Part shown: positions 1-39,963 of the stretch, piece after piece
Layout: each line of letters opens with the position of its first letter
Numbering within the stretch: the stretch's first letter is position 1
Assembly: GCF_004010195.1 (NCBI RefSeq)
Contig: NC_057752.1
Span: forward strand, 12,156,923-12,220,922
From: Chiloscyllium plagiosum
Lineage: Eukaryota
Direction of reading: 5' to 3'
Length of the DNA stretch: 64,000 nucleotides
Made by a program: the position numbers and the translations under genes
The notes under the pieces: model-generated
Told to the model about the DNA's origin: nothing
Seen by the model: the letters and a program-made list of their open reading frames with translations, nothing else
The model's database searches: none

Positions 1-372
1 CTGGACTTCAATATCATTCCTTAGGCTGCTATTCAAAGGTTGTGAAATCACATCCCACCAGGGTCGATTTTCAGTTCAATTTTTTGAAAAAACCTTCTTC
101 TCTGTTTTTGGTTGCTGTTCAGTCCCACGCTCCTGGAGAAGGAGCACGCAGTGTCCACCAACACCCTGGAGCTGTTCAGGGAGAGGTGGGCACCGCAGGG
201 AGTGGCTACTCTACTTTGGACAGGGAAATAATCCCTGCCCTCCCCTTCACTGTTTGATCACACAGCATTGCCCTTTGATGTGAAGGGCACTGCTTGCCAC
301 TGGCCACTCGGGTGTTTCCTTTCTTCCTGGTAGTGGAAATTGAATAAAGGTTCATACACCTTGATAAAAAAA
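1..372 (+). mobile_element. tRNA-Arg-headed / Tx1-tailed non-autonomous retroelement, copy 1 (cut by window start, internal deletion)
   Basis: 1-66 matches the 3' part of an intron-containing tRNA-Arg(TCT) (ggacttc..intron..attcaaaggttgtg..atcccaccagggtcg). The rest matches the Tx1 ORF2 C-terminus/3'UTR seen at 6830-7300 and 39260-39673, ending in AATAAA and an A-tract. Confidence 0.75.
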
Positions 373-509
373 ATAAACAAACAGGAGTGTCAGATATCCT
401 GTTCACTCTGAGAGCTGGCTCTGAGGGAGCTGGATTAGTGTCAAGGACTTCCACGTGTAAATAAAGGGTGACTTGGTGACGGGATACCGGCCTCTGCAGA
501 GGTATTTCA
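373..509 (+). mobile_element. 3' half of short Gypsy-type LTR (from TATA region to terminal CA)
   Basis: Homologous to LTR copies at 20719-20944 (-), 31891-32043 and 58588-58808; contains AATAAA and ends in ..tttCA. Confidence 0.75.
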
Positions 510-1657
510 CTCCCCATAACCCTTTGATCCCATTACTCATCAAGAATCCATCTATCTCTGTCTTAAATACACTCAATGACTTGGCCTCCACAGTCCCCTG
601 TGGCAATGATTTTCACAGATTCTCCACCTTCTGGCTGAAGAAATTCCTCCTCATCTCAGCTCTGAAGGGTCGTCCCTTCACTCTGAGGCTGTGCCCTCTC
701 CTGCTGGTGAAAATACCTTCTCCACATCCACTCTATCCAGGCCTCTCAGTATTCTGACAGGTTTCAGTCAGATCCCCCCTCATCCATCTAAACTCCATCG
801 CGTACAGACCCAGAGTCCTCCACCGCTCCTCATATGACAAGCCCTTTGTCCCCGGGATCTTCCTTATAAACTTCGTCTAGGCCCTCTCCAAGGCCAGCAC
901 ATCCTTCCTTAGATACAAGGCCCTAAACTGCTCACAATATTCCAAATGGAGTCTGACCAGAGCCCTATTCAGCCTCAATAGTACATCTCTGCTCTTGGAT
1001 TCTAGCCCTCTTGAAATAACTCTTAACATTGCATTAGCCTTCCTAATTGCCAACTAAACCTGCACATTAACCTTAAGAGAATCCTGAACTCGACTTCCAA
1101 GTCCCTTTGTGCTTCAGATTTCTGAAGCCTTTGCCCCATTCAGAAAATAGTCTACATCTCTATTCTTCCTACCAAACAACATAACCTCACACTTTCCTAC
1201 ATTGTATTCCATCTGCCACTCCTTTGTCTGCTCTCTCAGCCTGTCCAAGTCCTTTTGCAACTCCCCACTTCCTCAACTCTATCTGTCATAGAGTCATAGA
1301 GATGTACAGCATGGAAACAGACCCTTCGGTCCAACCTGTCCATGCCGACCAGATATCCCAACCCAATCTAGTCCCACCTGCCAGCACCCGGCCCATATCC
1401 CTCCAAATCCTTCCTATTCATATACCCATCCAAATGCCTCTTAAATGTTGCAATTGTACCAGCCTTCACCACTTCCTCTGGCAGCTTGTTCCATACACGT
1501 GCCACCCTCTGTGTGAAAATGTTGCCCCTGAGGTCTCTTTTATTTCTTTTCCCTCTCACCTTAAACCTATGCACCTCTAGTTCTGGTCTCCCCGATCCCA
1601 GGGAAAAGACTTTGCCTATTTACCCTATCCATGCCCCTCATAATTTTGTAAACCTCT
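510..1657 (-). mobile_element. CR1 LINE 3' fragments (two adjacent copies; second 1285-1657)
   Basis: Minus-strand ORF2 C-terminal motifs (FTQRVARVWNKLPEEVV, FKTEIDGFL) and a short-repeat tail. Confidence 0.85.
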
Positions 1658-1925
1658 ATCGCTCCTGTACTCCATGTTCTCGAATGGGAGAGAGAGAGAG
1701 AGAGACCCTGCTGCAGGGGCCCATCGAGTCGGCCGTTCGGTCACGGGTGACCAACCTCGGGCCTGCTGAGGTTCCATTGCGTCCTGCTCGGCCGCTCGCC
1801 GTCGTTGCTAGGTAACGGTCGGCTCCCCACCCTCCCTGATTTCCCGTTTGGCAGCGGGACTAACCTCCCCAACACCCCCCTCCCCAGTTTTCACCTCTCT
1901 CCCACCCCCTCTTTCGCTCTGGCAG

Positions 1926-2075
1926 CTGGTCGCCAACGCTGTGGTGTTCACCTGTGGGATCCTGGTGGGGGCCTACCAGAAACACCTGATGGACCGGGCC
2001 CTCCGCAAGACCTTCGAGGACACCCTCAACTGCGTCAAGTCCCACCTCAAACTGGAGCACGAGAAGAAGCAGCAG
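1926..2075 (+). CDS. Internal exon of membrane adenylate cyclase, ADCY2/4/7 subgroup (closest to ADCY4/ADCY2); end of M1 domain into coiled coil before C1a
   Basis: Pyrimidine tract + cag acceptor at 1923-1925, GTGAG donor at 2076, 150 bp, phase 0/0. Encodes LVANAVVFTCGILVGAYQKHLMDRALRKTFEDTLNCVKSHLKLEHEKKQQ, matching the ADCY2/4 segment just before ERLLLS. Confidence 0.9.
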
Positions 2076-2167
2076 GTGAGGCGGTGGGTGGGTGAGCTGG
2101 TGGGTGGGGGCCCGCGGCCCACTTGGAGTCAGGCTTCGGGCCTCGCCGCGACCTCCGACCTCCCTCA

Positions 2168-2585
2168 CTAACCGGGCCTAGTCGCGATCTCTGCCACTCT
2201 CCGGCCCCACTCCCCCGATAACCGGGCCTAGTCGCAATCTCTGACATCCTCCGGCCCCACTCCCCCGCTAACCGGGCCTAGTCGCAATCTCTGACATCCT
2301 CCAGCCCCACTCCCCTGCTAACCGGGCCTAGTCGCGATCTCTGACATCCTCCAGCCCCACTCTCCCGCTAACCGGGTCTAGTCGCGATCTCTGACATACT
2401 CCGGCCCCACTCCCCCGCTAACCGGGTCTAGTCGCGATCTCTGACACACTACGGCCCCACTCCCCTGCTAACCGGGCCTAGTCACGATCTCTGACACTGT
2501 CCGGCACGACTCCCCAGCTAACCGGGCCTAGTCGCAATCTCTGACATCCTCCGGCCCCACTCCCCTGCTAACCGGGCCTAGTCGC
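2168..2585. repeat. 50-bp GC-rich minisatellite, about 8 copies, runs into gap
   Basis: Unit taaccgggcctagtcgcgatctctgacatcctccggccccactcccccgc recurs at 2169, 2219, 2269 and so on. Confidence 0.95.
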
Positions 2586-5500
2586 NNNNNNNNNNNNNNN
2601 NNNNNNNNNNNNNNNNNNNNNNNNNNNNNNNNNNNNNNNNNNNNNNNNNNNNNNNNNNNNNNNNNNNNNNNNNNNNNNNNNNNNNNNNNNNNNNNNNNNN
2701 NNNNNNNNNNNNNNNNNNNNNNNNNNNNNNNNNNNNNNNNNNNNNNNNNNNNNNNNNNNNNNNNNNNNNNNNNNNNNNNNNNNNNNNNNNNNNNNNTATA
2801 TCTTTCCCCTCTCACCCTAAACCTATGCCCTCTAGTTCTGGACTCCCTGACTCCAGGGAAAAGGCTTTGTCTATTTATCCATCCATGCCCCTCATAATTT
2901 TGTAAACCTCTATAAGATCACCCCTCAGCCTCCGACGCTCCAGGGAAATCAGCCCCAGCCTGTTTAGCCTCTCCCTGTAGCTCAGATCCTCCAATCCCTG
3001 ATCAGGTCCTGGGGATTTATCTACTTTTAACCGTTTTAAGACGTCCAGCACTTCCTCCTTTGTAATCTGGACATTTTGCAAGATGTCACCATCTATTTCC
3101 CTACAGTCTATATCTTCCATATCCTTTTCCACAGTAAATACTGATGCAAAATACTCATTTAGTATCTCCCCCATTTTCTGCGGCTCCACACAAAGGTCAC
3201 CTTGCTGATCTTTGAGGGGCTTTATTCTCTCCCTAGTTACCCTTTTGTCCTTAATATATTTGTAAAAACCCTTTGGATTCTCCTTAATTCTATTGGCCAA
3301 AGCTATCTCATGTCCCCTTTTTGCCCTCCTGATTTCCCTCTTAAGTATACTCCTATTTCCTTTATACTCTTCTAAGGATTCATTCGATCTCTCCTGTCTA
3401 TACCTGACAAACGCTTCCCTCTTTTTCTTAACCAAACCCTCAATTTCTTTAGTCATCCAGCATTCCCTGTACCTACCCTTTCACCCTGACAGGATTATAC
3501 TTTCTCTGGATTCTTGTTATCTCATTTCTGAAGGCTTCCCAATTTCCTGTGAACATCTGCCCCCAATCAGCTTTCGAAAGTTCTTGCCTAATACCATCAA
3601 AATTGGCCTTTCTCCAATTTAGAACTTCAACTTTTAGATCTGGCCTATCCTTTTCCATCACTATTTAAAATCTAACAGAATTATGGTCGCTGGCCCCAAA
3701 GTGCTCCCCCGTTGATACCTCAGTTACCTGCCCTGCCTTATTTCCCAAGAGTAGGTCAGGTTTTGCACCTTCTCTAGTAGGTACACAGACTGAATCAGAA
3801 AATTGTCTTGTTTGTACTTAACAAATTCCTCTCCGTCTGTACCCTTAACACTATGTCAGCCTTAGTCTATGTTTGAAAAGTTAAAATCCCCTACCATAAC
3901 CACCCAATTATTCTTACAGATAGCTGAGATCTCCTTACAAGTTTGTTTCTCAATTTCCCTCTGACTATTAGGGGGTCTATTATACAATCGCAATAAGCTT
4001 ATCATCTCTTTCTTATTTCTCAGTCCCACCCAAATAACTTCCCTGGATGTATTTCTGGGAATATCCTCCCTCAGCACAGCTGTAATGCTATCCCTTATCA
4101 AAAATGCCACCCACTCCCCCCCCCACCTCTCTTGCCTCCCTTTCTATCCTTCATGTAGCATTTGTATCCTGGAACATTAAGCTGCCAGTCCTGCCCATCC
4201 CTGAGCCATGTTTCTGTAATTGCTATGATATCCCAGTCCCATGTTCTTAACCATGCCCTGAGTTCACCTGCCTTCCCTGTTAGCCCCCTTGCATTGAAAT
4301 AAATGCAGTTTAATTTATCAGTCCTACCTTGTCCCTGCCTGCCCTGACTGTTTGACTCACTTCTGTTCTCAGCTGTACCGGTCTCAGATCGATCTCTTTC
4401 CTCAGTTTCTCCCTGGGTCCCACCGCCCCCCCACCTTACTAGTCTAAATCCTCCCAATCAGCTCGAGCAAACCTCCCTGCCAGTATATTAGTCCCCTTCC
4501 AATTTAGGTGCAATCTATCCTTCTTGCACAGGTCACTTGTACCCCAAAAGAGATTCTAATGATCCAAATATGTGAATCCTTCTCCCATACACCAGCTCCT
4601 CAGCCATGCATTCATCTGCTCTATCCTCCTATTCCTACCCTCACTAGCTCGTAGCGCTGGGAGTAATCCAGATATTACTACCCTTGAGGACCTCCTTTTT
4701 AAATTTCTGCCTAACTCTCTATAATCTCCCTTCAGAATCTCAACCTTTTCCCTTCCAGTGTCGTTGGTTCCAATGTGGACAATGACCTCCTGCTGGCCCC
4801 TCTCCCCCGTGAGAATATTCTGCACCCTCTCTAAGACATCCTTGATACTGGCACCAGGGAAACAAGACACCATTCTGCTTTTTCTCTGCTGGCCACAGAA
4901 ACGTCTGTTTGTACCTCGGACTACAGAATCCCCTTACACAATTGAACTCTTGGAACCCCTCGTTGCATTAGAGCCAGTCTTAATACCAGAAACTTAGCTG
5001 CTTGTGCTACGTTCCCCTGAGAATCCATCACCCCCTACATTTTCCAAAACAGCATACCTGTTTGAAATGGGTATATCCACAAAAGACCCCTGTACTAGCT
5101 GCCTACCTCTCTTACCTTTCCTGGAGTTAACCCATCTATGTGACTGTATCTGAGACTTTCCCCCCTTCCTATAACTGCCATCCATCACATACTGTTGCTG
5201 TTGCAAATTCCTCATTGCTTCTATCTGTCTCTCCAACCGATCCACTCGATCTGATAAGATTCGCAGCCAACAGCATTTATGGCAGATATAATCCGCAGTA
5301 ACCCTTAAACTCTCTTTAAACTCCCACATCTGACAAGAAGTACAGATCACTCTATTAAAGGCCATTTTTGCTCCTTCACAAATTACAGACCCAGAAATTA
5401 ACACCGTCTTATTCCTCTACAAACACTGCCCCAGGTTAAATTAATAGTTATGGCTTATATTTTAAGTTTAATCAAGAGACATACCTCCAAAAACATCTAA

Positions 5501-5840
5501 TCAAGAAAGAACCCACTCTACTCACTACTGTAGATTCTCTGTGTACCACACGTAAAACAACAATTAACTTATCTGATTCTGTGTTGTGAACTTCGCCCAA
5601 ACCGGTTCCTCCAAGATTAGTTGTGAAATTCACTGTTTGTTAATTTTCCCAGATGTACTCCGATGTCCAACGATACATGAATTCAAAAACAGCAAAGGCA
5701 GTAACTGTGCAGGTTCTCTCTCTCTCTCTCTCTCCTGCACTGACCTCACCATGAGCTTCCTTTGTCTGCTCTTCTCCCTTTTAAAGCTGCTGTTGTTTTG
5801 ACTTTTTTTTCCCAATGTTCCAAAACAATGCAATAGCTTA

Positions 5841-6125
5841 TAAAAATCACACAACACCAGGTTATAGTCCAACAGGTTTAATTGGAAGCACACTAGCTTT
5901 TGGAGCGATGCGCCTTCATCAGGTGATAGTGGATAATTTCAGTTACATCACACTGTAAATATTTGCTATAAATTCCGTGTGTTAGGATCGAGCCCTCCAC
6001 TATCACCTGATGACGGAGCGTCGCTCCGAAAGCTAGTGTGCTTCCAATTAAACCTGTTGGACTATAACCTGGTGGTGTGTGATTTTTAACTTTGTACACC
6101 CCAGTGCAACACCGGCATCTCCAAA
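5841..6125 (+). mobile_element. Penelope-like pseudo-LTR with inverted 5' partial copy, inserted in CR1 5' region
   Basis: Inverted arms 5841-5933 and 5996-6088; carries a hammerhead core. Confidence 0.7.
6004..6038 (+). ncRNA. Minimal type I hammerhead ribozyme motif
   Basis: CAC-CTGATGA-c-GGAGC-gtc-GCTCC-GAAA-GCTA-GTG: core, 5-bp stem II, palindromic AGCT stem III, CAC/GTG stem I. Confidence 0.7.
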
Positions 6126-6249
6126 AGCATATAAAAGAGTAATTGCTGCTCCTGGAATTTGAGGAAATCACCTCCAGCACCTAAAATACCTCAAAAAAGG
6201 AGCAGCTGTTACAGCCAGAAATTTTTCCCGTCCTCCATCTTGGATTACC

Positions 6250-6670
6250 CAGAATCTTCTCCTTTCTTTGTGCCATCTGTAAACAATGCAACCATACTCT
6301 TAATTCCTTCATCCAGATCATTAATATGTAACGTGAATAGTTGTGGCCCTGATGCTAATCCCCTGTGGAACTCCACTAGCCACTGGCTCCATCCTGAAAA
6401 CGATCCCTTTATGCCCACTCTCTGCCTTCCATCAGTCAGCCAATCCTCTATCCACGCTAGTACCTTACCCCTCACACCAGGGGCTCCTGTCTTATTTAGC
6501 AGCCTCCTGTACAGAAACGTGTCAAAGGCCTTCTGGAAATCAAAACAGGTCACGTCCATTGGATCCCTTTTGTCTAACCTGCTCATTACCTCCTCAAAGA
6601 ATTCCATCAGATCTGTCAGGCGTGACCACCCCTTGATGAAGCCATGCTGACTCAGCCCTATTTTACAATG
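6250..6670 (-). mobile_element. CR1 RT fragment
   Basis: QHGFIKG..DFQKAFD..WIEDWLTDGRQRVGI motifs. Confidence 0.85.
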
Positions 6671-6733
6671 TAGTTCATGTACTCCGCAAAAAAAAGCAAG
6701 AAAAAGAAAAAAAAAGAACAGAAGCGTAAGCGC

Positions 6734-7440
6734 GGCTCTGTGACGCAATTGAAAGCGCACTGGACTTCAATATCATTCCTCAGGCTGCTTTTCAAAAGTT
6801 GTGAATTCACATCCCACCAGATTTTCAGTTAAATTTTTCTTAAAAACTTTCTTCCCTGTTTTGGGTTGCTGTTCAGTCCCACGCTCCTGATTTTTGGGTA
6901 CCTGGTATGGAGGGGGGAGGGCAAGTCTGAAGACCTCCTCGTGGGTCTGTTCCTGGGCCTGGCCAAACTGGCCATCAACAGGTCCAGGCAGCGGGCCGTG
7001 GAGGGGGTCGTTAGGGCTGACTGCCTGTTCCTCTTCCGCGGGTATGTCAGAGACCGGGTGTTTCTGGAGAAGGAGCACGCGGTGTCCACCAACACCCTTA
7101 AGCTGTTCAGGGAGAGGTGGGCACCGCAGGGAGTGGAGTGCTTTATTTCCCCCTCCAACTCTATTTTAATCCCTGCCGTCCCTTTCACTGTTTGATCACG
7201 CAGCACTGCCTTTGATGTAAAGGGCATTGCTTGTCACTGGCCACCCGGGTATCTCTTTTTTTCATGGTGGTGGAAATTGAATAAAGATTTGTACACCTTG
7301 TGTCTTTCGCTGTGTCTGACACCTGCACACACACAACATGGGTGCTGGGGAAAAATAAGCATTACTGCAGTTAGGCAGTAATGTGGACAAAAAAAAATTT
7401 TAAAAATAAGCTAGAGTGTCAGACATTCTGTTAAAAAAAA
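6734..7440 (+). mobile_element. tRNA-Arg-headed / Tx1-tailed non-autonomous retroelement, copy 2
   Basis: 6734-6820 is a degenerate intron-containing tRNA-Arg(TCT). It is followed by the Tx1 ORF2 C-terminus (LLVGLFLGLAKLAINRSRQR), a 3'UTR, an A-tract, a short LTR-derived piece and a second A-tract. Confidence 0.8.
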
Positions 7441-7449
7441 GAATAGATG

Positions 7450-20718: not shown

Positions 20719-20944
20719 TAAAGTAACCCCACAGAGGCTGGTATCCCATCACCAAATCATCTTTTATTTACATATGGACAGTCCTTGACTTTCACACTGC
20801 CTCTTCAGAGTCAGATCTTACAGTGTCAGTATCTCTAACACTCCTGTTAGAATCTGTCAGCCAGGGCTCCCTGATTGGATCAGATTAATAGAATATGAAT
20901 TCCCTGATTGGGGCTAAGAGATCCACCTGGCTGACCTCATTATA
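20719..20944 (-). mobile_element. Solo Gypsy-type LTR, uninterrupted and degenerate
   Basis: Reverse complement aligns with both halves of the LTR (caatcagggagccctggctgacaga, aacaggagtgttagag, gtaaataaaag, gataccagcctctg). Confidence 0.75.
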
Positions 20945-23904
20945 ATCATTGCAAATAAGTTTTCTTGAGTCTCTCGCATTTTAGATTTCCAAGCGTGATG
21001 TTGATACTTTCATACAGCAGGACTGAGAAACATAAGAAATACATTCTTTCAAGTGAACTTAAAGTTCAGATACCTTTTCCTTAGTTACATGAGGGTTTGT
21101 CCTCGTTTAAGGCAAGTGGGTTCTCTTTTGGTAGGCATGTGGATGCTCACAGTTTCATTGTGTGCCCATTACTGTTTCTTCATTTGCTTTGTCCATTTAT
21201 TTTTCTCTTCCCTTAGGTCATTCTACAATATTCCTTACCACACAGGTTTAGGGTGATGACACATTTTGGTTGAGAGTACAAGGAGAGACAATATAATATT
21301 CCACATTAATCCTTGGACAATTCCTATGCTTAGTGCTCAGTACCAAGGATGAAGGCTTGACAGTTTGTTCAAATTCATAAATGTCTCTTTGTAAGCAGTG
21401 GCTAGCCATGTTAGTCACTGTTTACCACCTAATTTGTTACTGCTTAACGTTGTTGCAATGTATAAACAGGTCCAAGCCTTTTAATTAACAGCACAGCAAT
21501 CTACACAATCTGAGACACGTAGGATCTGTTTAATTCCATCTGTTGCAAACTGATCTTAGGAAGATTGAGGACATACACTGAAAACTAATATGGAAGGTAC
21601 ATCATATCGTGGAGTGCTAATGATCTAACTTGCATGACATGAATAACTCATGAGGGCAAAGTTTAAATGACTTATACAGATGCACAGGAGAAGCATGAAG
21701 AAATTGATCTCTAGCTCCCATATTTATGACTTTCCCTATGTCAACAGCTGGTACTGAATATTTGCCCCACAGAGGCAGGAAAAAGTGGGGAGTCTCTACC
21801 CAGACCAGCAGGAAGTATGTTTGCTGAAGCAGTGTGGAGGTTCATGGATTGAGAATGGAGAAGACCATCCAACTCTTGTGCATCCAGCAGGGCTCAGGCC
21901 TTTGAGCACATGAACTCCTCAGTAGACAGTAGACAATTTCTTGGAGAGCCATATGCAGCAGCCTGCAAAGTGCAGGCAGGAACTCCATATGATTCCCACA
22001 GGATGGGTGCTATGTTACGTAGCCTTGAATGGGCAGTGCATGAGCAGAGAGATCTTTGGAGTCGATGCCAGTTGTACCTCATCTGCTCCACTCCTCCAGC
22101 CATCTGCAGGGTTAGGAAAGAGATAAGGATATCATGGAGGATGATGTGGCACCCCTCAAAGGACACCATCATCATCCACTCACTGGAGCCCAGTGACAGA
22201 GTCTAGCCTTACATTGGCACCAGTGCAGCAGCTTCTGGACATGCCATCGGGGGCACCTTCAGGGTGAGGATGGCTGCCATGTGAAGCTCAGCCACAGGCA
22301 CATTTTTTGAGGCCACAAAGAGGAAGCATCATGTAAAAATGGCCAAGAATGGAGGCCACTGAATCAGGCAGATTACTGGGTGGGTCACTGAGGTGTGTTC
22401 TTACAGTTTCTACCTACTGTTTTCCTCTGTTTGTATTAATTATAACGTGGAGGTAGTCTGAGACACCTATGCTAAAACACGTGGAATGCACAACCAGGAA
22501 TCTCTAATCACTTACTATCATGGAAGGAGCACCTCCTGACTCCTCAAAGCCTGTCCACTTTGAGGCACAAGTCAGGAGTCTAATAGAATACTTCCCACTT
22601 GCCTGGATGGGGGCAGCTCCAACAACACTCAAAGAAATTGACTGGGAAACTGAAGATTCTGATGGGCAGAATAAAGCAACCCACTTGATGGGTACTATAT
22701 TCACTAGAATTTTCTGCCATCCTCTCTTGTGAGAGGACAAACCTTTGCTGCAATGTACTTCCACAGATATCAGTTTCATTCCAGCATCTTAAACATTCTT
22801 CACACCTGTCTTGAGGTGGATGACGGCAGACTATGAAACTAAAGAAATATCACAGACATGTCTCACTGATAACTCCAGGGCTTTGAGTTGATCTTTCCCG
22901 TTCCTAACAGATAGGCATTGTAGCATGCTCACAGTTGCTCCAGCGAAGATCAGGACAGGAAATGTCATGTACAAAGGTTTCTGTAGGGAACATTTCAACT
23001 GCATCTGGAGAGGCATGAATGAATGATATGTAACAGAGCCAGCCGGCTGGTGAGGGCGGGGGCGTGTCTTTTCTACACCAGCAACTTGCAAGAACTAAAC
23101 AAGATGGGGTCTTAATTTCTTCAACTCAGAAGCATGATTATTCAAACACCACAGAACTCATGTCAGTATATCACATGCAAATTGGTTTCCATTTCTCTCT
23201 ATTCTCTCCTGAGGTGCAAGATCAAAATGGAACACATTAGAACAGCAACTCAGAGCTGAACCTTTAATTCCATGACAACTCCTCAAAGCAGGAGATTCTG
23301 GAAATGTATTGTTGAAAGCAATGTTACTATTTAGTGCCTTGTTGTTGCATGCTAAAATGTAAAGATTTTGTTTCACTAAATTATTTCACAAAATTTGGTT
23401 CTATATTTGAGTCAAAGTATCCATGATACCAGCTCAATAATGTAATCCCTTGCTTCAGAAATTTCTAAAATTGGAGAAATTGGTAAAGAGTGAGAGAGCA
23501 GAAATGCTGCAAGTAACCAGATGGGACAAACTATATATAGCATCAAGTTTGCTTATAAAAGTGTGATGAAAGCCCATATTGTTCATTGATTACATAACTT
23601 TCTGGCCAATGTGTAAGTCAATGTATGCGCTGTGAATCCTGATTCAATACGGATAGGAAGGATTTAAGAGGAATATTGCCCAAATACTGACAAATGGTAC
23701 TAGGTCAGATTGTGATGTCAGTCAGCGCAGACAAGTTGGACCAGAGAGTCTGCTTTTGTGCTGTATGACTTGATAGAAGCTATAGCAGAATCATGTTCTA
23801 GATGCCTGATGTCTTGTGTGGGATGGAAGAAAAACTGTTACACTGGTATACTTTACTGCTGCAATAAATGTCACAATTTTTAAAAAAATGGCTCTTTACC
23901 GTTC

Positions 23905-30692: not shown

Positions 30693-31890
30693 CTATAACA
30701 TCATTCAGTCCCAAATCCTATGAAATCCTTCTGCTCCACCAATTCTGGTTTCTTGCATATCCCAAATTTAATCACCCTACCTTCATTGGCACGGGCCCTC
30801 AGCTCTGGAATTCCCTAAACCTCTTTACCTCTCACTTTCTTTAAGAAGCTCCTTAAAAGATACCCATGACCAGCTTTTTGTCTTCTGCCCTGATATCTCT
30901 TTTGGTGGTTTGATATTTCAATTCTGTTTGAGAATGCTTCTGTGAAGTGCCTTCAAACACCTTTTTGTGAATGCATGATATAAACACAATTTGTTCTTAA
31001 TATTGCCTGTCAAATCAGATCCAAATCAGGCAGTGAGACAGAAACAAAAACATTTTTTATAAAGAAAAGCCAGCCTGTTTAGACAAGTTACAACACCTCT
31101 CTGAGGCCATGGCATCCTCAGGGATGCTACCATCGCGCCACCAGACCCACAAGAGACCCTTTCTTAAATTTGAAAGCAAGCTGTTTGGATACTTTATGAT
31201 GCACCTCTGCAGCAGGTGGGACTTCAACCTGGAGCTTCTGGTCCAGATGTAGGGACAGTTCAGCCCTCAGGATTGGGTGATGAGCTCCCTCAGACCCACT
31301 TCAATATGAGAGGGTAAACAGTTCAAGATCCAGCCTTCAGGTATCTCTGAAAATGAAACTAAAACCGGACTAAACTACTAAAGTGAAGAAAAAAACTGAG
31401 GTAAAAGGGCCACGAATCCCCAACATATAGATACCCATTCCCTACTGGAAAATGAAGAACTTTGTGCAGAAAGTACACTCCCAGATTTTTATTCTCAAGT
31501 GAATGAGTACACGGGGAAAAGGAAGAATAAATGCAATGAAATCCATATGAATTCATTCATATTAGTTTACAAAATCATTACTCATAGCATGGTCAAACAA
31601 AACTTGAGTGTTGCTGGAAAAAGACACATTTTATCCAAGCTTTCTGTCTTAAATTCATTTCGCAAGAATATATATTCAAGGGGAAACCAAATATTTATAC
31701 TGCCTGAGTGTGTTGATTGGTTGGCAGGTGGACTCTGATTGGTAAAAAGATTTGCCATAGGGAATGCATCCACTAATGCTGACTAACATTTAACAGCCAG
31801 GTTTTGTGAATATTACAAAAAAAAGGCATGTGGCCTCTGATTGGTCAGGACATTACCCTGAGAAATGAACCAGTGAAAGGCTGTTGTGAT

Positions 31891-32043
31891 TGTAACGAGG
31901 CCAGCCAGATGGAACTCACAAAATATGAGTTCTCTGATTGCGGCTATTCACCTGATGCAATCAGGGAGCCCTGGCTGACAGATATAAACTGAAATGTCAG
32001 AGGTTCTGTTCACTCTGAGAGCTGGAGCAGTGTCCAGGACTCT
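31891..32043 (+). mobile_element. 5' part of short Gypsy-type LTR heading a retroelement array
   Basis: Starts TGTAACGAGG, aligns to 58588-58808; TATAAA at 31983-31988. Confidence 0.8.
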
Positions 32044-33999
32044 CAAATTTGTGTTAGAGAGGGGGACTGACTCCAAGCTGACTGCCCACATCCAGTTTTT
32101 GGATTAGTGGTGCTGGAAGAGCACAGCAGTTCAGGCAGCATCCGAGGAGCAGCAAAATCGACGTTTCGGGCAAAAGCCCTTCATCAGGAATAAAGGCAGA
32201 GAGCCTGAAGCGTGGAGAGATAAGCTAGAGGACGGTGGGGGTGGGTAAAATGTAGCATGGAGTACAATGGGTGAGTGGGGGAGCGGGGATGAAGGTGAGT
32301 ACGCTCCTGTTGGTTTCTGGAGGAAATCTGATTCCTGAACTGGCTGAACCATATAGCCAGTTTATTAACTGGCATTCCTTTTTATTGAGGACTGACTTCT
32401 AAACTGATTTAAACAGTCAGTGTTACAGGTGTAACTCTGTTCTCATTAGGGGATTGTTGTTTCACTGGCTGGTTACAGCCTGTGTGTTACTCCTTTCTCT
32501 CCTTTTTACTTTTGAAAAAAGGACAATGTGGATTTTATGGTAGGGCTTAGCCCTTGGACTCTAGTTTCCTTTGTTTTTTTGTATGTGTCTTCATTGTTTT
32601 TGGTGTTTAGACTGAGCCCTTGTGGAAGACATACATTTTACCAGGGGAGCTGTTCCTGTGGGGAGGCCGAGCCCTGGGACTGGGCCTCTGAAGATTGAAC
32701 ACCTGTCTGTGTACTGGGAGGTGAGCACTTGCTGTATCCTGGAGTTTTGGGGAAGATTTTGCCTTCAGGAGTGGACCAAAAACCCCTGTGTTAACTGCAC
32801 CTTTAAAATGTACTGTTCCTGTGAGTGGCCCTGGCTCTCCAAAGATGTGCCAGGACTCTATGGAGGCTGAACACCTGTGTGCTGTGGGGTGTGCATTTGC
32901 TGCCTTTGGGAGCGGACTCTGCAGTTTGGAGTGGACTCCATTTTGGACAATGCATGCTGTAAACTGGAGTGGACTCTGTTCCTGAGAATGGACTCTGTAT
33001 TCTAAAGACTCTATATCTGGATTCTGTGAGTACCAGAAAGGACTCTGTGTTTTTTGATAATTAACTGTATCGCATTGTTTGTTGCGTCTACCACCTGCAC
33101 TGTCTCGCATGCCCCTCGGTCTGGCAGGCCTTACTGTGAGCTGGGGAGCTCATGGGTCGTCCTGAAAGCTGTCACCCCGAGAGCCGGAGGGTGGGTAGGT
33201 CATCCTGTGAACCTGAAGGTTGGTAGGCTGTCCCAAAAGCCGGAGGGTGGGTAGGCCACCCTGATGCCAGTTGCCCCGAGAGCCAGATGGTGGGTAGGCC
33301 GTTCTGAGCGCTGTCGTCCCGAGAAGGGGTGATCAGGACGGGCTGTCCTAGAGGTGGTCGGAAGGTGTGTCAGGGTGGTCCACTGGCCAGACGGCACATC
33401 GGGGTGGGTGAGAGCCCAATGGTACATAGGGGCAGACCGAGAGCCAAAGGTGGGTAGCTGTCCTCAGTGCTGTCACCCCGGGCAGGTACCGGGGCGGGCT
33501 GCCCCAGAGGTGGTCGAAAGCTGCTGAGGGTGGTTAGTGAAGCCGGAAGGTGGGTAGGCCGTCCTGACCACTGTCACCCCGGGCGCGTACCGGGGTGGGC
33601 TGTCCTAGAGGCAGTCGGAAGGTGTGTCAGGGCGGACCGAGAACTGGAAGGGGCATGGGGTGGACCGAGAGCCGGAAGATGTGTAGGAGTGGGCTGCCAT
33701 AGAGTGGTCGGAAGGTGGGAGGGACGGGGGCTTGCTGGGTGTGTATTGTATGCAGTTTGTTTTGTGACTGGATTGTCTTTTTATGTACAAATGCCATTGT
33801 TGCTGTCTTGTCATGCTTGAAACTGGGATTTGGGGTTTGTCCTCATTTCCCTGTAAACTGGTTGAACGGTACACAGTTTGGGGCATGGTTTTGCTGCTCC
33901 TCTCCCTTGTAGAATTGCTGTCTCTTGTATACAGCTGTAAATCTTGACTGTTTATATAAACTGTTTTGTAATTGTTTAATAAAATTTAAAAAACAAAAT
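32044..33999 (+). mobile_element. Non-coding non-autonomous element, array unit 1 (contains Penelope piece about 32096-32297 and GC-rich degenerate repeats about 33160-33720)
   Basis: 5' and 3' regions homologous to unit 2; ends in AATAAA plus A-rich tail; flanked by a 59-bp direct repeat of LTR sequence. Confidence 0.7.
32160..32187 (-). ncRNA. Minimal hammerhead ribozyme motif in Penelope repeat
   Basis: Minus strand reads CTGATGA-a-GGGC-tttt-GCCC-GAAA-CGTC. Confidence 0.6.
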
Positions 34000-34058
34000 T
34001 AAACTGAAATTTCAGAGGGTCTGTTCACTCTGAGAGCTGGAGCAGTGTCCAGAACTCT

Positions 34059-35826
34059 CAAATTTGTGTTAGAGAGGGGGACTGACTCCAAGCTGACTGC
34101 CCACATCCAGTGTGTACCGCTCCTGTTGGTTTCTGGAGGAAACCTGATTCCTGAACTGGCTGAACCATATAGCCAGTTTATTAACTGGCATTCCTTTTTA
34201 TTGAGGACTGACTTCTAAACTGATTTAAACAGTCAGTGTTACAGGTGTAACTCCGTTCTCATTAGTTACTCTTTTCCCTTCTCCTTTGAGAAAAGGATAA
34301 TGTTGATTTTGTGGCAGGGCTTAGCCCATGCACTCTGGTTTTCTTAGTTTCGAAGGTGTTTTCACTTTTTTGGCGTTTGGACTGGGCCTCTCTGAAAATA
34401 CGCCTTTCCAGATGAGCTGTTCCTGTATGGTTAGGCCTCTGTAAAGACTGAATATCTGTGTGTGCAGGGAGGTGAGCAATTGCTGCCTTTGCGAATGGAC
34501 CAAACCCTTGTGAGTTAACTACGCCTTTACAGTGTACTGAGTTCCTGGGAGTGGGCCTGGTTCACCAAGGATGGGCCAGGACTCCATGGAGACTGAACAC
34601 CTGTATGTGCTGCAGGGAGTGCATTCGCTGCCTTCGGATGTGGACTCTGTCTTGGTACTGGAAACTGTATTGCGAGGGCTTTGTGAATTCTGTTAATCTA
34701 TGTGGATTTTGTAATTAATTGTGTTCAAGTGCAGGCCAGAGTGGGCTGGTCAGTACGTGGAGTGGCTGGGAGCTGGAGGGTTGATGACCAGCCTTGGGGA
34801 AAGCAGGCTGGGGTGGAGGTGTCTGTTAGCACGCAGGGTGGCTGGTGGCTAGGCAGCCAAAAGCGTGCCTGTAGGAAAGCTGGGCAGGGGTGTGGCAGCC
34901 AATACACAGGCTGGCTGGAGGCCAAAGGGTTGATGACCAGCCTGGAGGAAAGCAGGCCAGGAGGAGCCTGTCGGTATGTGGGGTGGGCGGGGCAAGGCAA
35001 CTGATAGCATCCTCTCAGGAAAGCTGGTATACGGCAGGCTGGTCAATATGTGGGGAGGTTGAGCCAAGCAGCAGACGGCAGCCTGTAGGAAGGCCGACCG
35101 AGGGAGGACTGGTCAGTGCACAAGGTGGCTGGGAGTTAGACAGCCAATAGCCGGTCTGAAGGTACGCTGGCCCGGAGAAAGGGTCAGTCAGTACACAGGG
35201 AGGCCGGGTGCTGTAAGACCAACAGGCTGACTGTACAAAAGCAAGTCGGGGTGTTTTGGTTAGTATGTGGGGTGACCAGGAGCCAGTGACTGATGACTAT
35301 GCCGAAAGAAAGTTGGCTGGGGAGGGTCAGTCTGTAAGCAGGGCGGCCAGAGACAGAGGCTGACAAACAGCTCGTAGGAAAGCGACCTGGGGTAGTCCGG
35401 TCAGCAGGCGAGATGACGGGGAGCTGGGTGGTTAATCGACCAGCCTGGAGAAAAGTGGGCCTGGGGAGGGTCAGTCAGTTCGCAGGGCGGCCAGAGACCT
35501 GAAGGCTGACAACTGTCCTGCAGGAAGGCTAGCCAAGGATGGTCTGATCAGTATGTGGTGTGGACCGGTGTCCGGTATCTTTATTTTAGCTATATTGGGT
35601 CTGTGCTCTATGTACTGTTTGTCTTTTGATTGCACTGTCTTGTCTGTGTTTGTTACTGTTACCTTTGACTGAAAGTGGAACTTGAGGTTTGTCCTCATCT
35701 CCTTGAAAACTGGTTGAATGGTGGGGTTTGGCTTTGCGGCCCCTTCCGTGTATATAGTGGGATTTTTGTGAACTGCTGCTTTTGGTTTATTGTTAACTGT
35801 ATTTTGTACTGTTTAATAAAATAAAA
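34059..35826 (+). mobile_element. Non-coding non-autonomous element, array unit 2
   Basis: Same 5' start caaatttgtgttagagagggggactgactcc as unit 1, shared 3' motif gtttgtcctcat..aaactggttgaa, AATAAA/A tail; different central GC-rich repeat. Confidence 0.7.
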
Positions 35827-35898
35827 ATAAACCGAAGTGTCAGTGGTTCTGCTCACTCAGTTGGCTCTGAGTGAGCTGGTTCAGTGTCCAAGACACAC

Positions 35899-38800
35899 CA
35901 TTTTGTGTCAGGGAGGGGACTAACTATGTGCTGGCTGCCCATATACAGTCTGCACTGTGAAGAGGGGGAGAGTTTTTTTCTTTTTCCCCTTGTCCAGGGA
36001 AGACTTTTACCTTCAGTTTTTCTTTCGTTTTGTTGTTTTGTGCTTTTTCATTTTATTTGAACTGGTTGGCTGCACAGAGCCACCACCATTGTTGCTGCTG
36101 CCTGGGCCCCACAGACACCTGGGCCTGCCTCCCCTACTGCTGCCTGGGCCTCGCCAACACCTGGGACTGTTGCTGCTGTTACTGGCTGGGCCTAACCCAT
36201 CTGTTGTTGCCAGGGCCCACCAATACCTAGGACTGCTGCTGCTACTACCCTAGCCTCCATGTCGTGACCGCCATCACCTAAGGCCCACACAGAGGAAGAA
36301 CACCTGGGGTTGCCCAGCAGCACACTATGGTGAGCCCAAGAGCACCAGGTCCTAGCCGCACCTATACCAGGATAGCCGCTACCTTCGGCTCGGCTGCACC
36401 AGCCGCAGCTGTGAATACTTCCCCTTCAGGCACCTAACTAAACACCTGATGGTTAAGGCCTATCCTCACCCAAACATGACCATAGAGGCTTGCAGTAAGG
36501 CCATGGCTAGTGTGGTCGGCCTGCTAGCATAGTCTGGCCAGACACTCACCCTCCTCCCCGCCAGAGGATGAGGAGGCACAAGCAGCCCTTGGCATGGACC
36601 CGCTGTGGGGCTTTTGATGGCATATTGGGCTGAGTGGGGGAGTGCAGAGTGGGTATTGTGGTGGCACCTGTGACTGCCGGTGTGGGCTGGGCACCCTTCT
36701 GGGTGGGGCAGTTTTTTTCTAATGTGCCCCACCTCATGGCACAGGTGACACCGCACACTGTCCAGAAGATGCGGTAGGCCACGCCCTTTGTGGAGGAGGG
36801 TAAAGGAGCCCTCAGTGACCTCCTCCTGGGCCAGGCAAATAAACACCTGGCACCGGAAGGAGTACACGTGCTTGAGGGCGGGATTCTTCAGACCGAACAG
36901 GAGCGGTTGCACACCTGACTGAACTTCCCCCAGTGCTTGAAGGTGGGGGGAGAAGGAACTCAGGGCGGGACATTAGAGATCATGATCCGCTGGGCCGTGA
37001 CCTCCAATGGGTGGACAGGGAGGAATGTCCTGCCCACAGTAAGCCCCCTCTGCATGGCCACATGGACCGCCTGCTCGGTCTTCAGGAAAGATATGTCGCT
37101 GCAGCCGGATGTACGGGAAAGCCAATGGCTAGCAGGCCGACCACACTAGCCATGGCCTTACGGCAAGCCTCCATGGTCATGTTTGGGTGAGGATAGGCCT
37201 TAACCACCGGGATTCATTTTGTAAGTTCTGGGCCGGCTGGAGAAGGAAGCAGGGAGGCTTCCCCTCCCTGAGGCTATGGTGGGACGTGTGCAAGGCTCAC
37301 GTCCGCATTTTCTGTCAGGAGTATGCGAGGGGTTCAACAAACAAGCGGAAATCCTGGATCAAGGAGTTGGAGAAGGAGGTATTAACCTGGAGTCACGTCG
37401 CGGTGAGCATGATGTGGGTCTGGGCGGGGGGGTGTGCTGCAGCTCAGCCCGGAGGATGCCAGAAGGTTTAACACTCCTGTCATTTTAGAGGACCTGACCG
37501 GCACCCTCTACTGGCTCTCGAGGGGCAAGTCCCCGGTGCTGGATGGGCTGACTGTGGAGTTCTTCAGAGTGTTCAGGGACGTCCTGGAGAGTGACTACGC
37601 ACAGGTCCTGGGGGAGTGTCTCACTGCTGGAGAGCTGCCCCTTTCGTGGTGCATGGCGGTCATTGTCCTGCTACTGACGGGAACCTTTGTTCTTTGAAGA
37701 ACTGGTGTCCGGTCTTCTTCCTCTGCACAGACTACAAAATTTTCACCAGGGCGTTGTCCTCTTACCTGGCTTCCATGCTGGCCCACATGATTCACCCGGA
37801 CCAGTCCTACTCAGTCCCAGGCCAGAGGATACACGACAACATCCACCTGGTCTGGGACCTGATCCATCTGTCGACGGGCTGGTCTGCCGAGCGCCTTCCT
37901 GTCTCTCGACCAGGAGAAGGCGTTCGACAGGGTCGATCACGAGTACCTGCTCGGGACTCTGTAGGCATTCGGGTTCGGGACGCAGTTCGTCGCCCGGATC
38001 CGACTTTTGTACACTGTCGCAGAGTGTCTGGTTAAAGTTAACGGGTCCCTGACGGCGCGCCTTCACTTCGGGAGAGGAGTGCATCAAGGCTGCCCCCTGT
38101 CCGGCCAGCTGTATTCCCTGTGCGTGCAGCCTTTACTGCGCCTCTTGCGGAGGAGGTTGTCGGGGCTGGTTCTGCGCGGCGCGGGCACGGGGGTGGTCCT
38201 CTCGGCCTACGCTTTCACCGACCCGGCTGACCTGGGGAGGATGTGTGAGTGCCAGGCCGTGTACTTTGGTCCCTCCTCCTGGCTTTGTCGCTGACATCCG
38301 GAGAACATTGGTTCACTTCTTCTTCTGAGACAGAAAGATGCACTGGGTCGCTGCGCAGGTTCTGAGTCTCCCTATTGAGGTGGGTGGTCAGTCGCTGGCG
38401 TGTGTTTGCAACCAGGTGGTAACTTTCCGCCTTCAGACCTTGCAGCGATACCTTTATGATGAACCTCCTTCTAGGTGGTGCACCCTAGGAACGTATATTT
38501 TCCACCAAGTGCATAACCTCAACCACAACGCGCAACTCCTGTTCATCGACTGTGACGGTTTGGAGGTCGCTCTCAGGACGCTGCCTATCTTTAACCAGGA
38601 CCTGATCACAGTCTGGAACATGGTTGAATCGCATCGTACCTACCCTCCAGCAGGAGTAGCGGCTGTCATCAGGGAGCCATTGCTCAGGAATCCGAACCTC
38701 CGTACTCGCGGGTTTGTGTGGCTGTCAGAAAGGAAGGCTGGGCTGGGTAGGGACATAGTGGCAGGGCAGGACTGCCATTCGACGCCTTAAACCAACGGTG

Positions 38801-39673
38801 CTCGGACCCAACATCATGTATCCAGTTGGAGGATGCTCAGGTGTGCAGTGGAATCCCATCTACACTTAACCCTGCCCTGATGGAATTTCACATTGTTCCC
38901 AAGTTCCCGTACATCCCCTAGGAGCCTGTGCCCCACAACCTAAGCCGCCTCCGGAATTTTAGTTTTGCCCCCTTTGAGGACATAAAACGGTGAGCTCTGT
39001 ATCGACTGCTACTGCACACTGTCCACCCAATTCCCCTCATCCCCCATTTGCCACCGGGCGGTGGGGATCCCCAGTGGAGGGCTCTCTACGCGAGAGTCTT
39101 CCCCCTCTCTCTTGGGGATCTGGGGTGGAGGGTGCTGCACGCAGCAGTCCCCTGCAACCGCAGATTGCGGTGGTTCACGGACTCCCAGCCCAACTGCTTG
39201 TCGGTGGTGCTGTGGAGTCTGTAGACCATGTATATATTTAATTTTCTTAAAGATTTTCTCCTGTTTTTGGTTGCACTTCAGTCCCACGCTCCTGATCTTT
39301 GGGCACCCTGTGCGGTGGAGGGAGGGCAGGTCTGAAGACCTCCTCGTGGGTCTGCTCCTGGGCCTGGCCAAACTGGCCACCAACAGGTCCAGGCAGCGGG
39401 CCGTGGAGGGGGTCGTTAAGGCCGACTGCCTGCCCCTCTTCCGCGGTTACGTTAGAGCCCGGGTGTCCTTGGAGAAGGAGCACGCGGCGTCGACCAACAC
39501 CCTGGAGTTGTTCAGGGAGAGGTGGGCGCCGCAGGGAGTGGAGTGCATCATTTCTCCCTCCAACTCTATTTTGATTTAGTCCCCACCCACCCCTTCACTG
39601 TTTTGATCACACAGCACTGTCCCTTGCTGTGAAGGGCAGTGTTTGTCACTGCCCACCCGGGTGTTTTCCTATC
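35899..39673 (+). mobile_element. Tx1-clade (L1 group) LINE, decayed and rearranged, array unit 3
   Basis: ORF1 zinc knuckle (CHLCHEVGHI) in an inverted block. ORF2: WWDVCK, GKSPVLDGLTVEFF, DYKIF, HPDQSY, QEKAFDRV, GVHQGCPLSGQLY and C-terminal LLLGLAKLA. The 3'UTR runs into a gap. Confidence 0.85.
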
Positions 39674-39963
39674 NNNNNNNNNNNNNNNNNNNNNNNNNNN
39701 NNNNNNNNNNNNNNNNNNNNNNNNNNNNNNNNNNNNNNNNNNNNNNNNNNNNNNNNNNNNNNNNNNNNNNNNNNNNNNNNNNNNNNNNNNNNNNNNNNNN
39801 NNNNNNNNNNNNNNNNNNNNNNNNNNNNNNNNCACTACATGGCAAGCCTGACTGATAATCCGAAATTGGTTGACAGCATAATTCCTCACATTTTTAGGAT
39901 TATCCAGCAAGGATAAGGATTAGCATTATAGGCTAATAAATGAAATGTTAAAAACATAAATAA

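What the first reader, a model, noticed from the sequence alone, without database searches (positions are those of the whole stretch)
6734..7440. SINE-like chimera: intron-retaining tRNA-Arg(TCT) head fused to a Tx1 3' end
Seen: ggctctgtgacgcaattgaaagcgcactggacttcaa-[tatcattcctcaggctgct]-tttcaaaagttgtgaattcacatcccaccag aligns to vertebrate tRNA-Arg(TCT) genes including an intron of about 19 nt. It is joined to about 450 bp of Tx1 ORF2 end and 3'UTR. A second copy with the same junction is at 1-372, so the chimera has amplified. Both copies share a TCT-to-TCA anticodon change and a damaged B box. Inference: it arose from a genomic or unspliced tRNA gene and is mobilised by Tx1. Tx1-dependent, intron-retaining tRNA heads are unusual.
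Basis: partly seen in the sequence, partly recalled or inferred. Interest (0 to 1): 0.75.

Follow-up and report, generated by a model that had tools for sequence, protein, structure and literature searches.

The report
Unspliced tRNA fused to shark LINE
A decayed arginine-tRNA sequence with its intron still in place is fused to the tail of a LINE jumping gene twice within 7 kb of a shark genome; it is likely a one-off retrocopy of an unspliced tRNA that was later duplicated nearby, not a spreading SINE family.

Summary
Window 6734-6820 is a decayed tRNA-Arg(TCT) with a 19-nt intron after position 37. A 14-nt non-LINE trailer follows, joined through a T-run to about 555 nt of LINE ORF2 end and 3'UTR. 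Copy 1 (1-380) has the same intron and junction. Both share a TCA anticodon, a broken B box and rare LINE substitutions, so they descend from one chimera that had already decayed.

The SINE reading is not supported. The B box was dead before the copies split, and T4-T6 runs follow the head. In each of two same-species runs only one assembled contig covered the intron. That test missed copy 1 itself, so a few more copies are not excluded. The copies lay about 1.35 kb apart before a later insertion.

Best reading: a U6/L1-type chimeric retrocopy of a primary pre-tRNA, copied once locally. None of the 21 human tRNA/L1 chimeras listed keeps an intron. The scan had noted this genome's Tx1 targeting of LTRs before, but not this chimera.

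The parts
6688..6717 (+). A-rich tract before copy 2, likely the tail of an earlier insertion; no LINE body or LTR left half beside it. Its first 9 nt (A8G) recur at 7433-7441.
6718..6730 (+). Target-like 13-mer (10/13 to the word after copy 1); candidate 5' target-site duplication
6731..6733 (+). 3 nt between the target-like word and tRNA position 1; candidate pre-tRNA leader (inferred)
6734..6770 (+). tRNA-Arg(TCT) 5' exon, 32/37 to L014; anticodon reads TCA; two A-box changes (linear 10 and 17)
6771..6789 (+). 19-nt tRNA intron after position 37
6790..6820 (+). tRNA 3' exon, 24/31; B box broken (G53A, A58C); last 5 nt deleted
6821..6838 (+). Non-LINE trailer with T4 at 6822 and T5 at 6834-6838; the second T-run overlaps the LINE start at 6835
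   Evidence: (loose ends at 6835)
6835..7388 (+). 5'-truncated Tx1-like LINE: ORF2 C-terminus to about 7170, then 3'UTR with AATAAA at 7280 and a predicted 10-bp terminal hairpin at 7359-7384 (z -2.69)
7389..7409 (+). Decayed A-tail
7410..7432 (+). Target-like word (10/13) plus 10 nt of LTR-like right half, then an A8 run and a sense CR1-like LINE
1..66 (+). Copy 1 head: end of 5' exon (1-11), intron (12-30), complete 3' exon (31-66); 5' end outside the window
67..85 (+). Copy 1 trailer with T4 at 68 and T6 at 80
81..363 (+). Copy 1 LINE part: 177-nt deletion at a CTG repeat after 135, altered ORF end, stops 15 nt after AATAAA (343)
364..509 (+). Copy 1 A-tail (364-380), then target word and LTR-like right half ending in CA at 509
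510..6690 (-). One old antisense CR1-like LINE (510-1284 and 6255-6690) split by 4.97 kb of later material; it is the spacer between the two copies
37800..39674 (+). Longer, headless copy of the same LINE family with an RT domain, used as outgroup; ends in an assembly gap

Best explanation
A decayed, intron-containing tRNA-Arg sequence is joined through a T-run to a 5'-truncated LINE tail in two neighbouring copies; it likely arose once, when an unprocessed tRNA transcript was copied together with the LINE RNA, and was likely duplicated once nearby rather than spreading as a SINE. Step 1 (inferred): Pol III made a primary transcript with a short leader, the intron and a 14-nt trailer, reading through the first T4 and ending in oligo-U at the second T-run. 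Step 2 (inferred, by analogy with U6/L1): during target-primed reverse transcription at the LTR TATA-side target, the LINE enzyme switched from a 5'-truncated LINE RNA onto that oligo-U end, or copied an already ligated RNA. Step 3 (shown from shared changes): the insertion decayed by roughly 5%, losing anticodon and B box. Step 4 (inferred): the decayed unit was copied once over about 1.35 kb. I favour DNA-templated local copying, with copy 1 at the original LTR site and copy 2 a transplanted block that took the upstream A-tract and 23 nt of LTR with it. I put that route at about 55% against a read-through RNA route. Both copies are likely inert.
For: Full-length sense head with intron and trailer. 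Headless LINE contigs diverge upstream of 6835 in 3 of 3 DNA runs (8, 10 and 6 loose ends), so 6821-6834 is not LINE and the junction is a shared T-run. Target-like 13-mers flank copy 2, the 5' one ending 3 nt before tRNA position 1. Of 25 window sites within 3 mismatches of the target word, 4 have 12 or more A in the 20 nt upstream, and 3 of these 4 border the two copies (the 381 site is the query itself). Copy 2 differs from the contig majority at 13 of 126 positions (6835-6960). Copy 1 shares 3 of the 6 in its span (6853, 6870, 6871). At 6870 in X5 all depth except that of copy 2's own contig carries the majority letter (33754.4 of 33760.6). In the 3' part copy 1 = copy 2 against the 39-kb copy at 17 of 167 sites, against 7 of 123 expected from that copy's own branch (P 0.015). 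Over 6770-6824 depth equals a single contig in X1 (15.3) and X5 (6.28) and is 0 in X8, another species. The CR1-like pieces at 510-1284 and 6255-6690 are contiguous when set on 3 other CR1-like copies in the window. No LTR left half or LINE tail lies near copy 2's A-tract, and no LTR remainder follows it within 12.5 kb.
Against: The read test did not recover copy 1 in X1 (84% read) or X5, so its positive control failed. The tool also drops human-like contigs without notice. The two words flanking copy 2 match each other at only 7 of 13, below the roughly 80% expected (P 0.03), so the TSD is suggestive only. The DNA-copy route needs three later deletions in copy 1. Copy 1's end 15 nt after AATAAA, and copy 2's A8 run 22 nt after an AATAAA-like word with a 9-nt direct repeat at both ends, also fit RNA-mediated copying. 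The source tRNA gene was not found. The outgroup may belong to another subfamily, which would inflate the shared-site count.
Confidence: 0.65

Rival explanations
1. Low-copy retroposon family (proto-SINE): the dead-promoter chimera is transcribed by Pol II from the LTR promoter it sits beside, polyadenylated at AATAAA and re-inserted by the LINE enzyme, like crocodilian SINEU.
For: Both copies end in A-tails followed by the target word. They end at different points, each close behind an AATAAA or AATAAA-like word. Kojima proposes transcription from flanking target DNA for SINEU (PMC4494074 section 18). Copy 1 was invisible to the read test, so others may be too.
Against: No third copy was seen in 3 DNA runs or in the scan's notes. 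A retrocopy landing about 1.35 kb from its source is very unlikely unless copies are many (inference).
Confidence: 0.2
2. A genomic tRNA-Arg gene or pseudogene with a 5'-truncated LINE inserted just behind its terminator; intron retention is then trivial and no pre-tRNA was copied.
For: Intron and trailer are what genomic DNA would show. The TSD pair is weak (7/13).
Against: What follows the LINE tail is the LTR-type target, not a continuation of tRNA flank. An A-tract plus target-like word sits 3 nt before position 1 (about 2e-4 such sites per base). No other tRNA gene was called in the 64 kb at default score.
Confidence: 0.08
3. Copy 1 is a separate, ordinary LINE insertion in an LTR that later gained the head from copy 2 by gene conversion or template switching.
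For: It explains proximity, the different 3' end and the 177-nt gap at a 3-nt repeat in one step.
Against: Divergence between the copies is not detectably uneven along the element (4/61, 7/69, 3/73, 17/133; chi-square P 0.18). Their 3' parts are closer to each other than either is to the 39-kb copy.
Confidence: 0.05
4. A true Pol III SINE family with an intron-retaining tRNA head and many copies.
For: tRNA head plus LINE 3' tail is SINE2 architecture, and the shared junction occurs twice.
Against: The B box is broken in the common ancestor and T4-T6 runs follow the head. One contig per run covers the intron while the LINE tail draws summed depths of 1e4-1e5.
Confidence: 0.02

Closest known systems
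U6/L1 chimeric retrocopies (Doucet et al. 2015, PMC4476161, sections 6 and 10 read; Moldovan et al. 2019, PMC6789731, passages read)
   Same: Full-length Pol III RNA in sense orientation, ending in a T-run joined to a 5'-truncated LINE, with an A-tail. Such chimeras occur with several LINE clades.
   Different: The small RNA here is an unspliced pre-tRNA. U6 ligation by RtcB needs a 2',3'-cyclic phosphate, which a primary pre-tRNA end is not known to carry (recalled), so template switching is the likelier route here.
Human tRNA/LINE-1 chimeras (Law and Burns, PMC11838501 passages; PMC13174262 passages and all 21 rows of the tRNA sheet in supplement 3)
   Same: tRNA sequence at the 5' end of a LINE, from one insertion event. 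One locus is tRNA-Arg-AGA in sense orientation.
   Different: By my count of the rows, 16 of 21 are antisense. Of 5 sense rows, two are near-full-length tRNA-Glu (one with an LTR piece between) and three are 5' halves (Tyr 1-37, Tyr 1-35, Arg-AGA 1-38) with the L1 starting 0-7 nt later. None shows intron plus 3' exon. The shark copy keeps intron, 3' exon and trailer.
Pre-tRNA retropseudogenes (Schmitz et al. 2004; not held, seen only as cited in PMC4476161)
   Same: Retrocopies of tRNA precursors made by LINE machinery are already in print.
   Different: That paper's title class is tailless, without a LINE body. I could not check whether intron-bearing cases are described.
SINEU and Tx1-Mar of crocodilians (Kojima 2015, PMC4494074, sections 15 and 18 and passages read)
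   Same: Small-RNA head, Tx1 partner with transposon targets (two families prefer LTR elements), internal oligo-T that rules out Pol III transcription.
   Different: SINEU are multi-copy families with U1/U2 heads. Here the head is a tRNA and only two neighbouring copies are seen.

Membership tests
tRNA-headed SINE (SINE2) | Head derived from a tRNA gene | tested here: met
tRNA-headed SINE (SINE2) | Intact A and B boxes in the source copy | tested here: not met
   G53A and A58C are shared by both copies; copy 1 adds T54A. Box consensus is recalled.
tRNA-headed SINE (SINE2) | No Pol III terminator inside the element | tested here: not met
   T4 and T5-6 runs within 20 nt of the head in both copies; 7 runs of T4 or more behind the head in copy 2
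tRNA-headed SINE (SINE2) | LINE-derived 3' tail | tested here: met
tRNA-headed SINE (SINE2) | Many dispersed copies | tested here: not met
   One contig over the intron in each of 2 same-species runs. Copy 1 was missed, so a handful of copies is not excluded; no genome was held.
Small-RNA/LINE chimeric retrocopy (U6/L1 type) | Full-length small RNA in sense orientation directly 5' of a truncated LINE | tested here: met
Small-RNA/LINE chimeric retrocopy (U6/L1 type) | Junction at the oligo-U end of a Pol III transcript | tested here: inconclusive
   The junction lies in a T5-6 run 14 nt past the tRNA end, but the source gene's terminator was not seen
Small-RNA/LINE chimeric retrocopy (U6/L1 type) | One target-site duplication around both parts | tested here: inconclusive
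   Target-like words at 6718 and 7410, each 10/13 to the 381 word but 7/13 to each other
Small-RNA/LINE chimeric retrocopy (U6/L1 type) | A-tail at the 3' end | tested here: met
   7389-7409 and 364-380
Tx1 group of L1-clade LINEs (tail donor) | ORF2 with endonuclease and reverse transcriptase | tested here: met
   The tail aligns to the C-terminus of P0112 (PF03372 + PF00078); the 39-kb copy has an RVT_1 hit below the curated cut-off
Tx1 group of L1-clade LINEs (tail donor) | RT phylogeny groups with named Tx1 elements | not tested
   No named Tx1 reference came back. The label Tx1 is recalled and follows earlier scan notes.
Tx1 group of L1-clade LINEs (tail donor) | Sequence-specific target | tested here: inconclusive
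   Both copies end at the same LTR-like word, and a further A-tail does so at 35831. These are few sites and not independent.

The most novel reading that the evidence does not exclude
A proto-SINE caught at birth. An unspliced pre-tRNA was captured by a target-specific Tx1 LINE and parked beside an LTR TATA box. It lost its Pol III promoter and still made further retrocopies from the borrowed LTR promoter, giving a small dispersed family whose head keeps a tRNA intron. The failed recovery of copy 1 in the read test leaves room for several unseen copies.
Probability: 0.2. Interest if true: 0.55.

Novelty: new variant of a known kind. Interest (0 to 1): 0.3.

Why it matters
It is a fossil suggesting that a LINE enzyme can pick up a complete nuclear pre-tRNA, before leader trimming, trailer removal and splicing, and place it at the 5' end of a LINE tail. 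This is the founding step long proposed for tRNA-headed SINEs. The likely failure is also visible: a primary transcript brings its own Pol III terminator, so the new unit cannot be transcribed through. The catalogued human sense-oriented case for the same isotype keeps only the 5' exon, so the shark copy points to a different capture point. It gives a simple testable question: across shark genomes, how often do LINE chimeras carry whole pre-tRNAs as against 5' exons? As a single decayed locus it has no evident function.

Tried and rejected
No whole genome was held, so no genome-wide copy count or source-gene search was possible. ARAGORN with relaxed scores gave only spurious calls. Folding the head gave no signal (z -0.58 and -0.66).

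Expression: no RNA holder was listed. In one poly(A) single-cell run read to about 2 in 100, no read lay on 6737-6824. This says nothing on expression. X8 (another species, 89% read) has no contig on the intron or the left flank; I do not treat that as a date.

Both copies as 5' and 3' LTR of one LTR element: rejected, because there is no LTR left half before copy 2 (score 19, against 88 for a true left half). The 177-nt gap as a spliced intron: rejected, as no register gives GT-AG ends (read). Assembly duplicate or allele: rejected, 31 mismatches in 336 aligned bases, several indels and different flanks. Host-gene read-through from the adenylate cyclase gene: not relied on, since only one exon lies in the window.

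Pfam found nothing in the tail peptide. Paper searches for a described intron-retaining tRNA head or Tx1-tailed tRNA SINE (listings only) showed none. The library lacks most subscription papers and Repbase, and Schmitz 2004 was not held.

Full report
Setting. The window is repeat-rich vertebrate DNA. An exon at 1923-2075 is 51/51 identical to a protein named adenylate cyclase type 2-like of Chiloscyllium punctatum, so the source is a bamboo shark or close kin. No whole genome was held, which limits every copy-number statement below.

The head. Rfam's tRNA model covers 6734-6825 end to end at 19.5 bits, under the gathering score of 29, with 21 nt left unmodelled in the anticodon loop. A wider search and ARAGORN missed it. 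A degenerate pattern from the head fetched 20 loci. ARAGORN of them tRNA-Arg(TCT), and 8 have 12-19-nt introns after position 37. Against L014, copy 2 has 32/37 and 24/31 exon identities and copy 1 has 9/11 and 29/36. The alignment scores are 83.6 and 54.0, against a best of 40.7 in 700 background tiles. The intron is 19 nt in both copies. Seven exon changes are shared: T27C, T36A (anticodon now TCA), G52A, G53A, G57A, A58C and G59A. G59A may be a natural variant, since several fetched genes have A there. G53 and A58 are core B-box positions (recalled).

The junction and tail. The frame 6836-7174 aligns to the last 110 residues of a 1306-aa turtle endonuclease/RT protein. A longer headless copy of the family lies at about 37.8-39.7 kb. 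No named Tx1 reference came back, so 'Tx1' is a recalled label that agrees with earlier scan notes. In all 3 DNA runs laid, ordinary LINE contigs leave the stretch at 6835 with a different upstream sequence. So 6821-6834 is not LINE. It looks like a tRNA 3' trailer, with T4 near its start and a T5-6 run at its end that overlaps the LINE's first T4. Copy 2 keeps the whole 3'UTR, with a predicted terminal hairpin (z -2.69) and an A-tail.

Insertion site. Copy 1's tail is followed by a 13-nt word and an LTR-like right half that ends in CA against a cut CR1-like 3'UTR (LTR and CR1 labels are recalled or). Similar words stand at 7410 and at 6718, the latter after an A-tract and 3 nt before tRNA position 1. 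Of 25 sites within 3 mismatches, 4 follow an A-rich stretch, and 3 of those border the two copies. The two words around copy 2 agree at only 7 of 13 (P 0.03 if 80% is expected), so one TSD around head and tail is likely but not shown.

One origin. The copies differ at 31 of 336 aligned bases, with no detectable unevenness (P 0.18). Copy 2 differs from the contig majority at 13 of 126 positions, and copy 1 shares 3 of the 6 within its span, including a two-base change almost absent from other contigs. In the 3' part the two agree against the 39-kb copy at 17 of 167 sites (P 0.015 against that copy's own rate of 7/123), though subfamily structure could inflate this. The chimera therefore formed once, decayed, and only then became two.

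Not a spreading SINE. The promoter was already broken in the common ancestor, and T-runs follow the head at once. Kojima uses the same oligo-T argument against Pol III transcription of SINEU (PMC4494074 section 18). Over 6770-6824 the laid depth equals one contig in X1 (15.3; 84% read) and X5 (6.28; whole), and is zero in X8, another species. The LINE bins draw 1e4-1e5 summed depth (summed depth is not a copy number). The test therefore speaks against dozens or more copies but not against a handful.

Former neighbours. The antisense CR1-like pieces at 510-1284 and 6255-6690 are contiguous when placed on three other CR1-like copies in the window. Removing the 4.97 kb between them leaves the chimeras about 1.35 kb apart. 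Copy 2 has no LTR left half or LINE body before its A-tract and no LTR remainder within 12.5 kb after it. This suggests a block lifted from a stack like copy 1's site. Proximity favours DNA-templated copying. Two features fit an RNA route instead: copy 1 stops 15 nt after AATAAA, and copy 2's LTR stub ends in A8 with a 9-nt direct repeat at both outer ends. These are low-complexity signals, and I leave the route at about 55 to 45.

Comparison. The structure works like a U6/L1 chimera: a whole Pol III RNA in sense, joined at a T-run to a truncated LINE (PMC4476161 sections 6 and 10; PMC6789731 passages). Pre-tRNA retropseudogenes are cited there; the primary paper was not held. Human tRNA/L1 chimeras number 21 (PMC11838501 and PMC13174262 passages). 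In the supplement's 21 rows I count 16 antisense and 5 sense. The sense Tyr and Arg-AGA rows stop at positions 35-38, and none shows an intron with the 3' exon. PMC3747384 was seen as passages. Eight searches (listings only) showed no intron-retaining tRNA head, but Repbase and most subscription papers are outside the library.

Verdict. The feature is real. It fails three SINE membership tests. It meets two of the four features of a small-RNA/LINE chimeric retrocopy, with the other two inconclusive. It is a new variant of a known kind, of modest interest (0.3). A low-copy Pol II-driven family remains possible (0.2) and would be settled by one genome-wide search.

Noticed in passing
window 1660-2585: A single adenylate cyclase exon (1923-2075, 51/51 to P0159), with a CpG-rich upstream stretch and a 50-bp tandem array, lies beside an N gap inside material that splits an old CR1-like LINE. 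No other exon of the protein is in the 64 kb. Possible misjoin or transposed exon.
   Followed up: partly
window 6800-6811: Five shared T-arm changes turn the B-box region into a perfect 12-nt palindrome in copy 2, suggesting quasi-palindrome template-switch mutation. The window has 16 such palindromes in all, so chance is not excluded.
   Followed up: partly
PMC13174262 supplement 3, tRNA sheet: The three sense-oriented half-tRNA/L1 chimeras in human are Tyr, Tyr and Arg-AGA, isotypes with intron-bearing genes (recalled), and end at positions 35-38. This would fit ligation of a spliced-off 5' exon to L1 RNA; I did not see this remarked in the passages read.
   Followed up: no
window 33987-34111 and 35813-35900: Other A-tailed 3' ends, unlike this LINE's tail, also stop at LTR-like target words, suggesting a second family with a related target.
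   Followed up: no
window 20720-20945 (-) and about 31890-32100 (+): Short solo-LTR-like repeats with the target word uninterrupted, usable as empty-site references.
   Followed up: partly
window 5841-6104: A fold-back repeat with long inverted arms; it gave a sub-threshold MIR6140 hit at 5890-6039 (44.2 bits against gathering 140). Probably a MITE-like element.
   Followed up: no
window 3000-6254 (-): A long antisense LINE-like stretch forms most of the 4.97 kb that separates the two halves of the old CR1-like copy.
   Followed up: no
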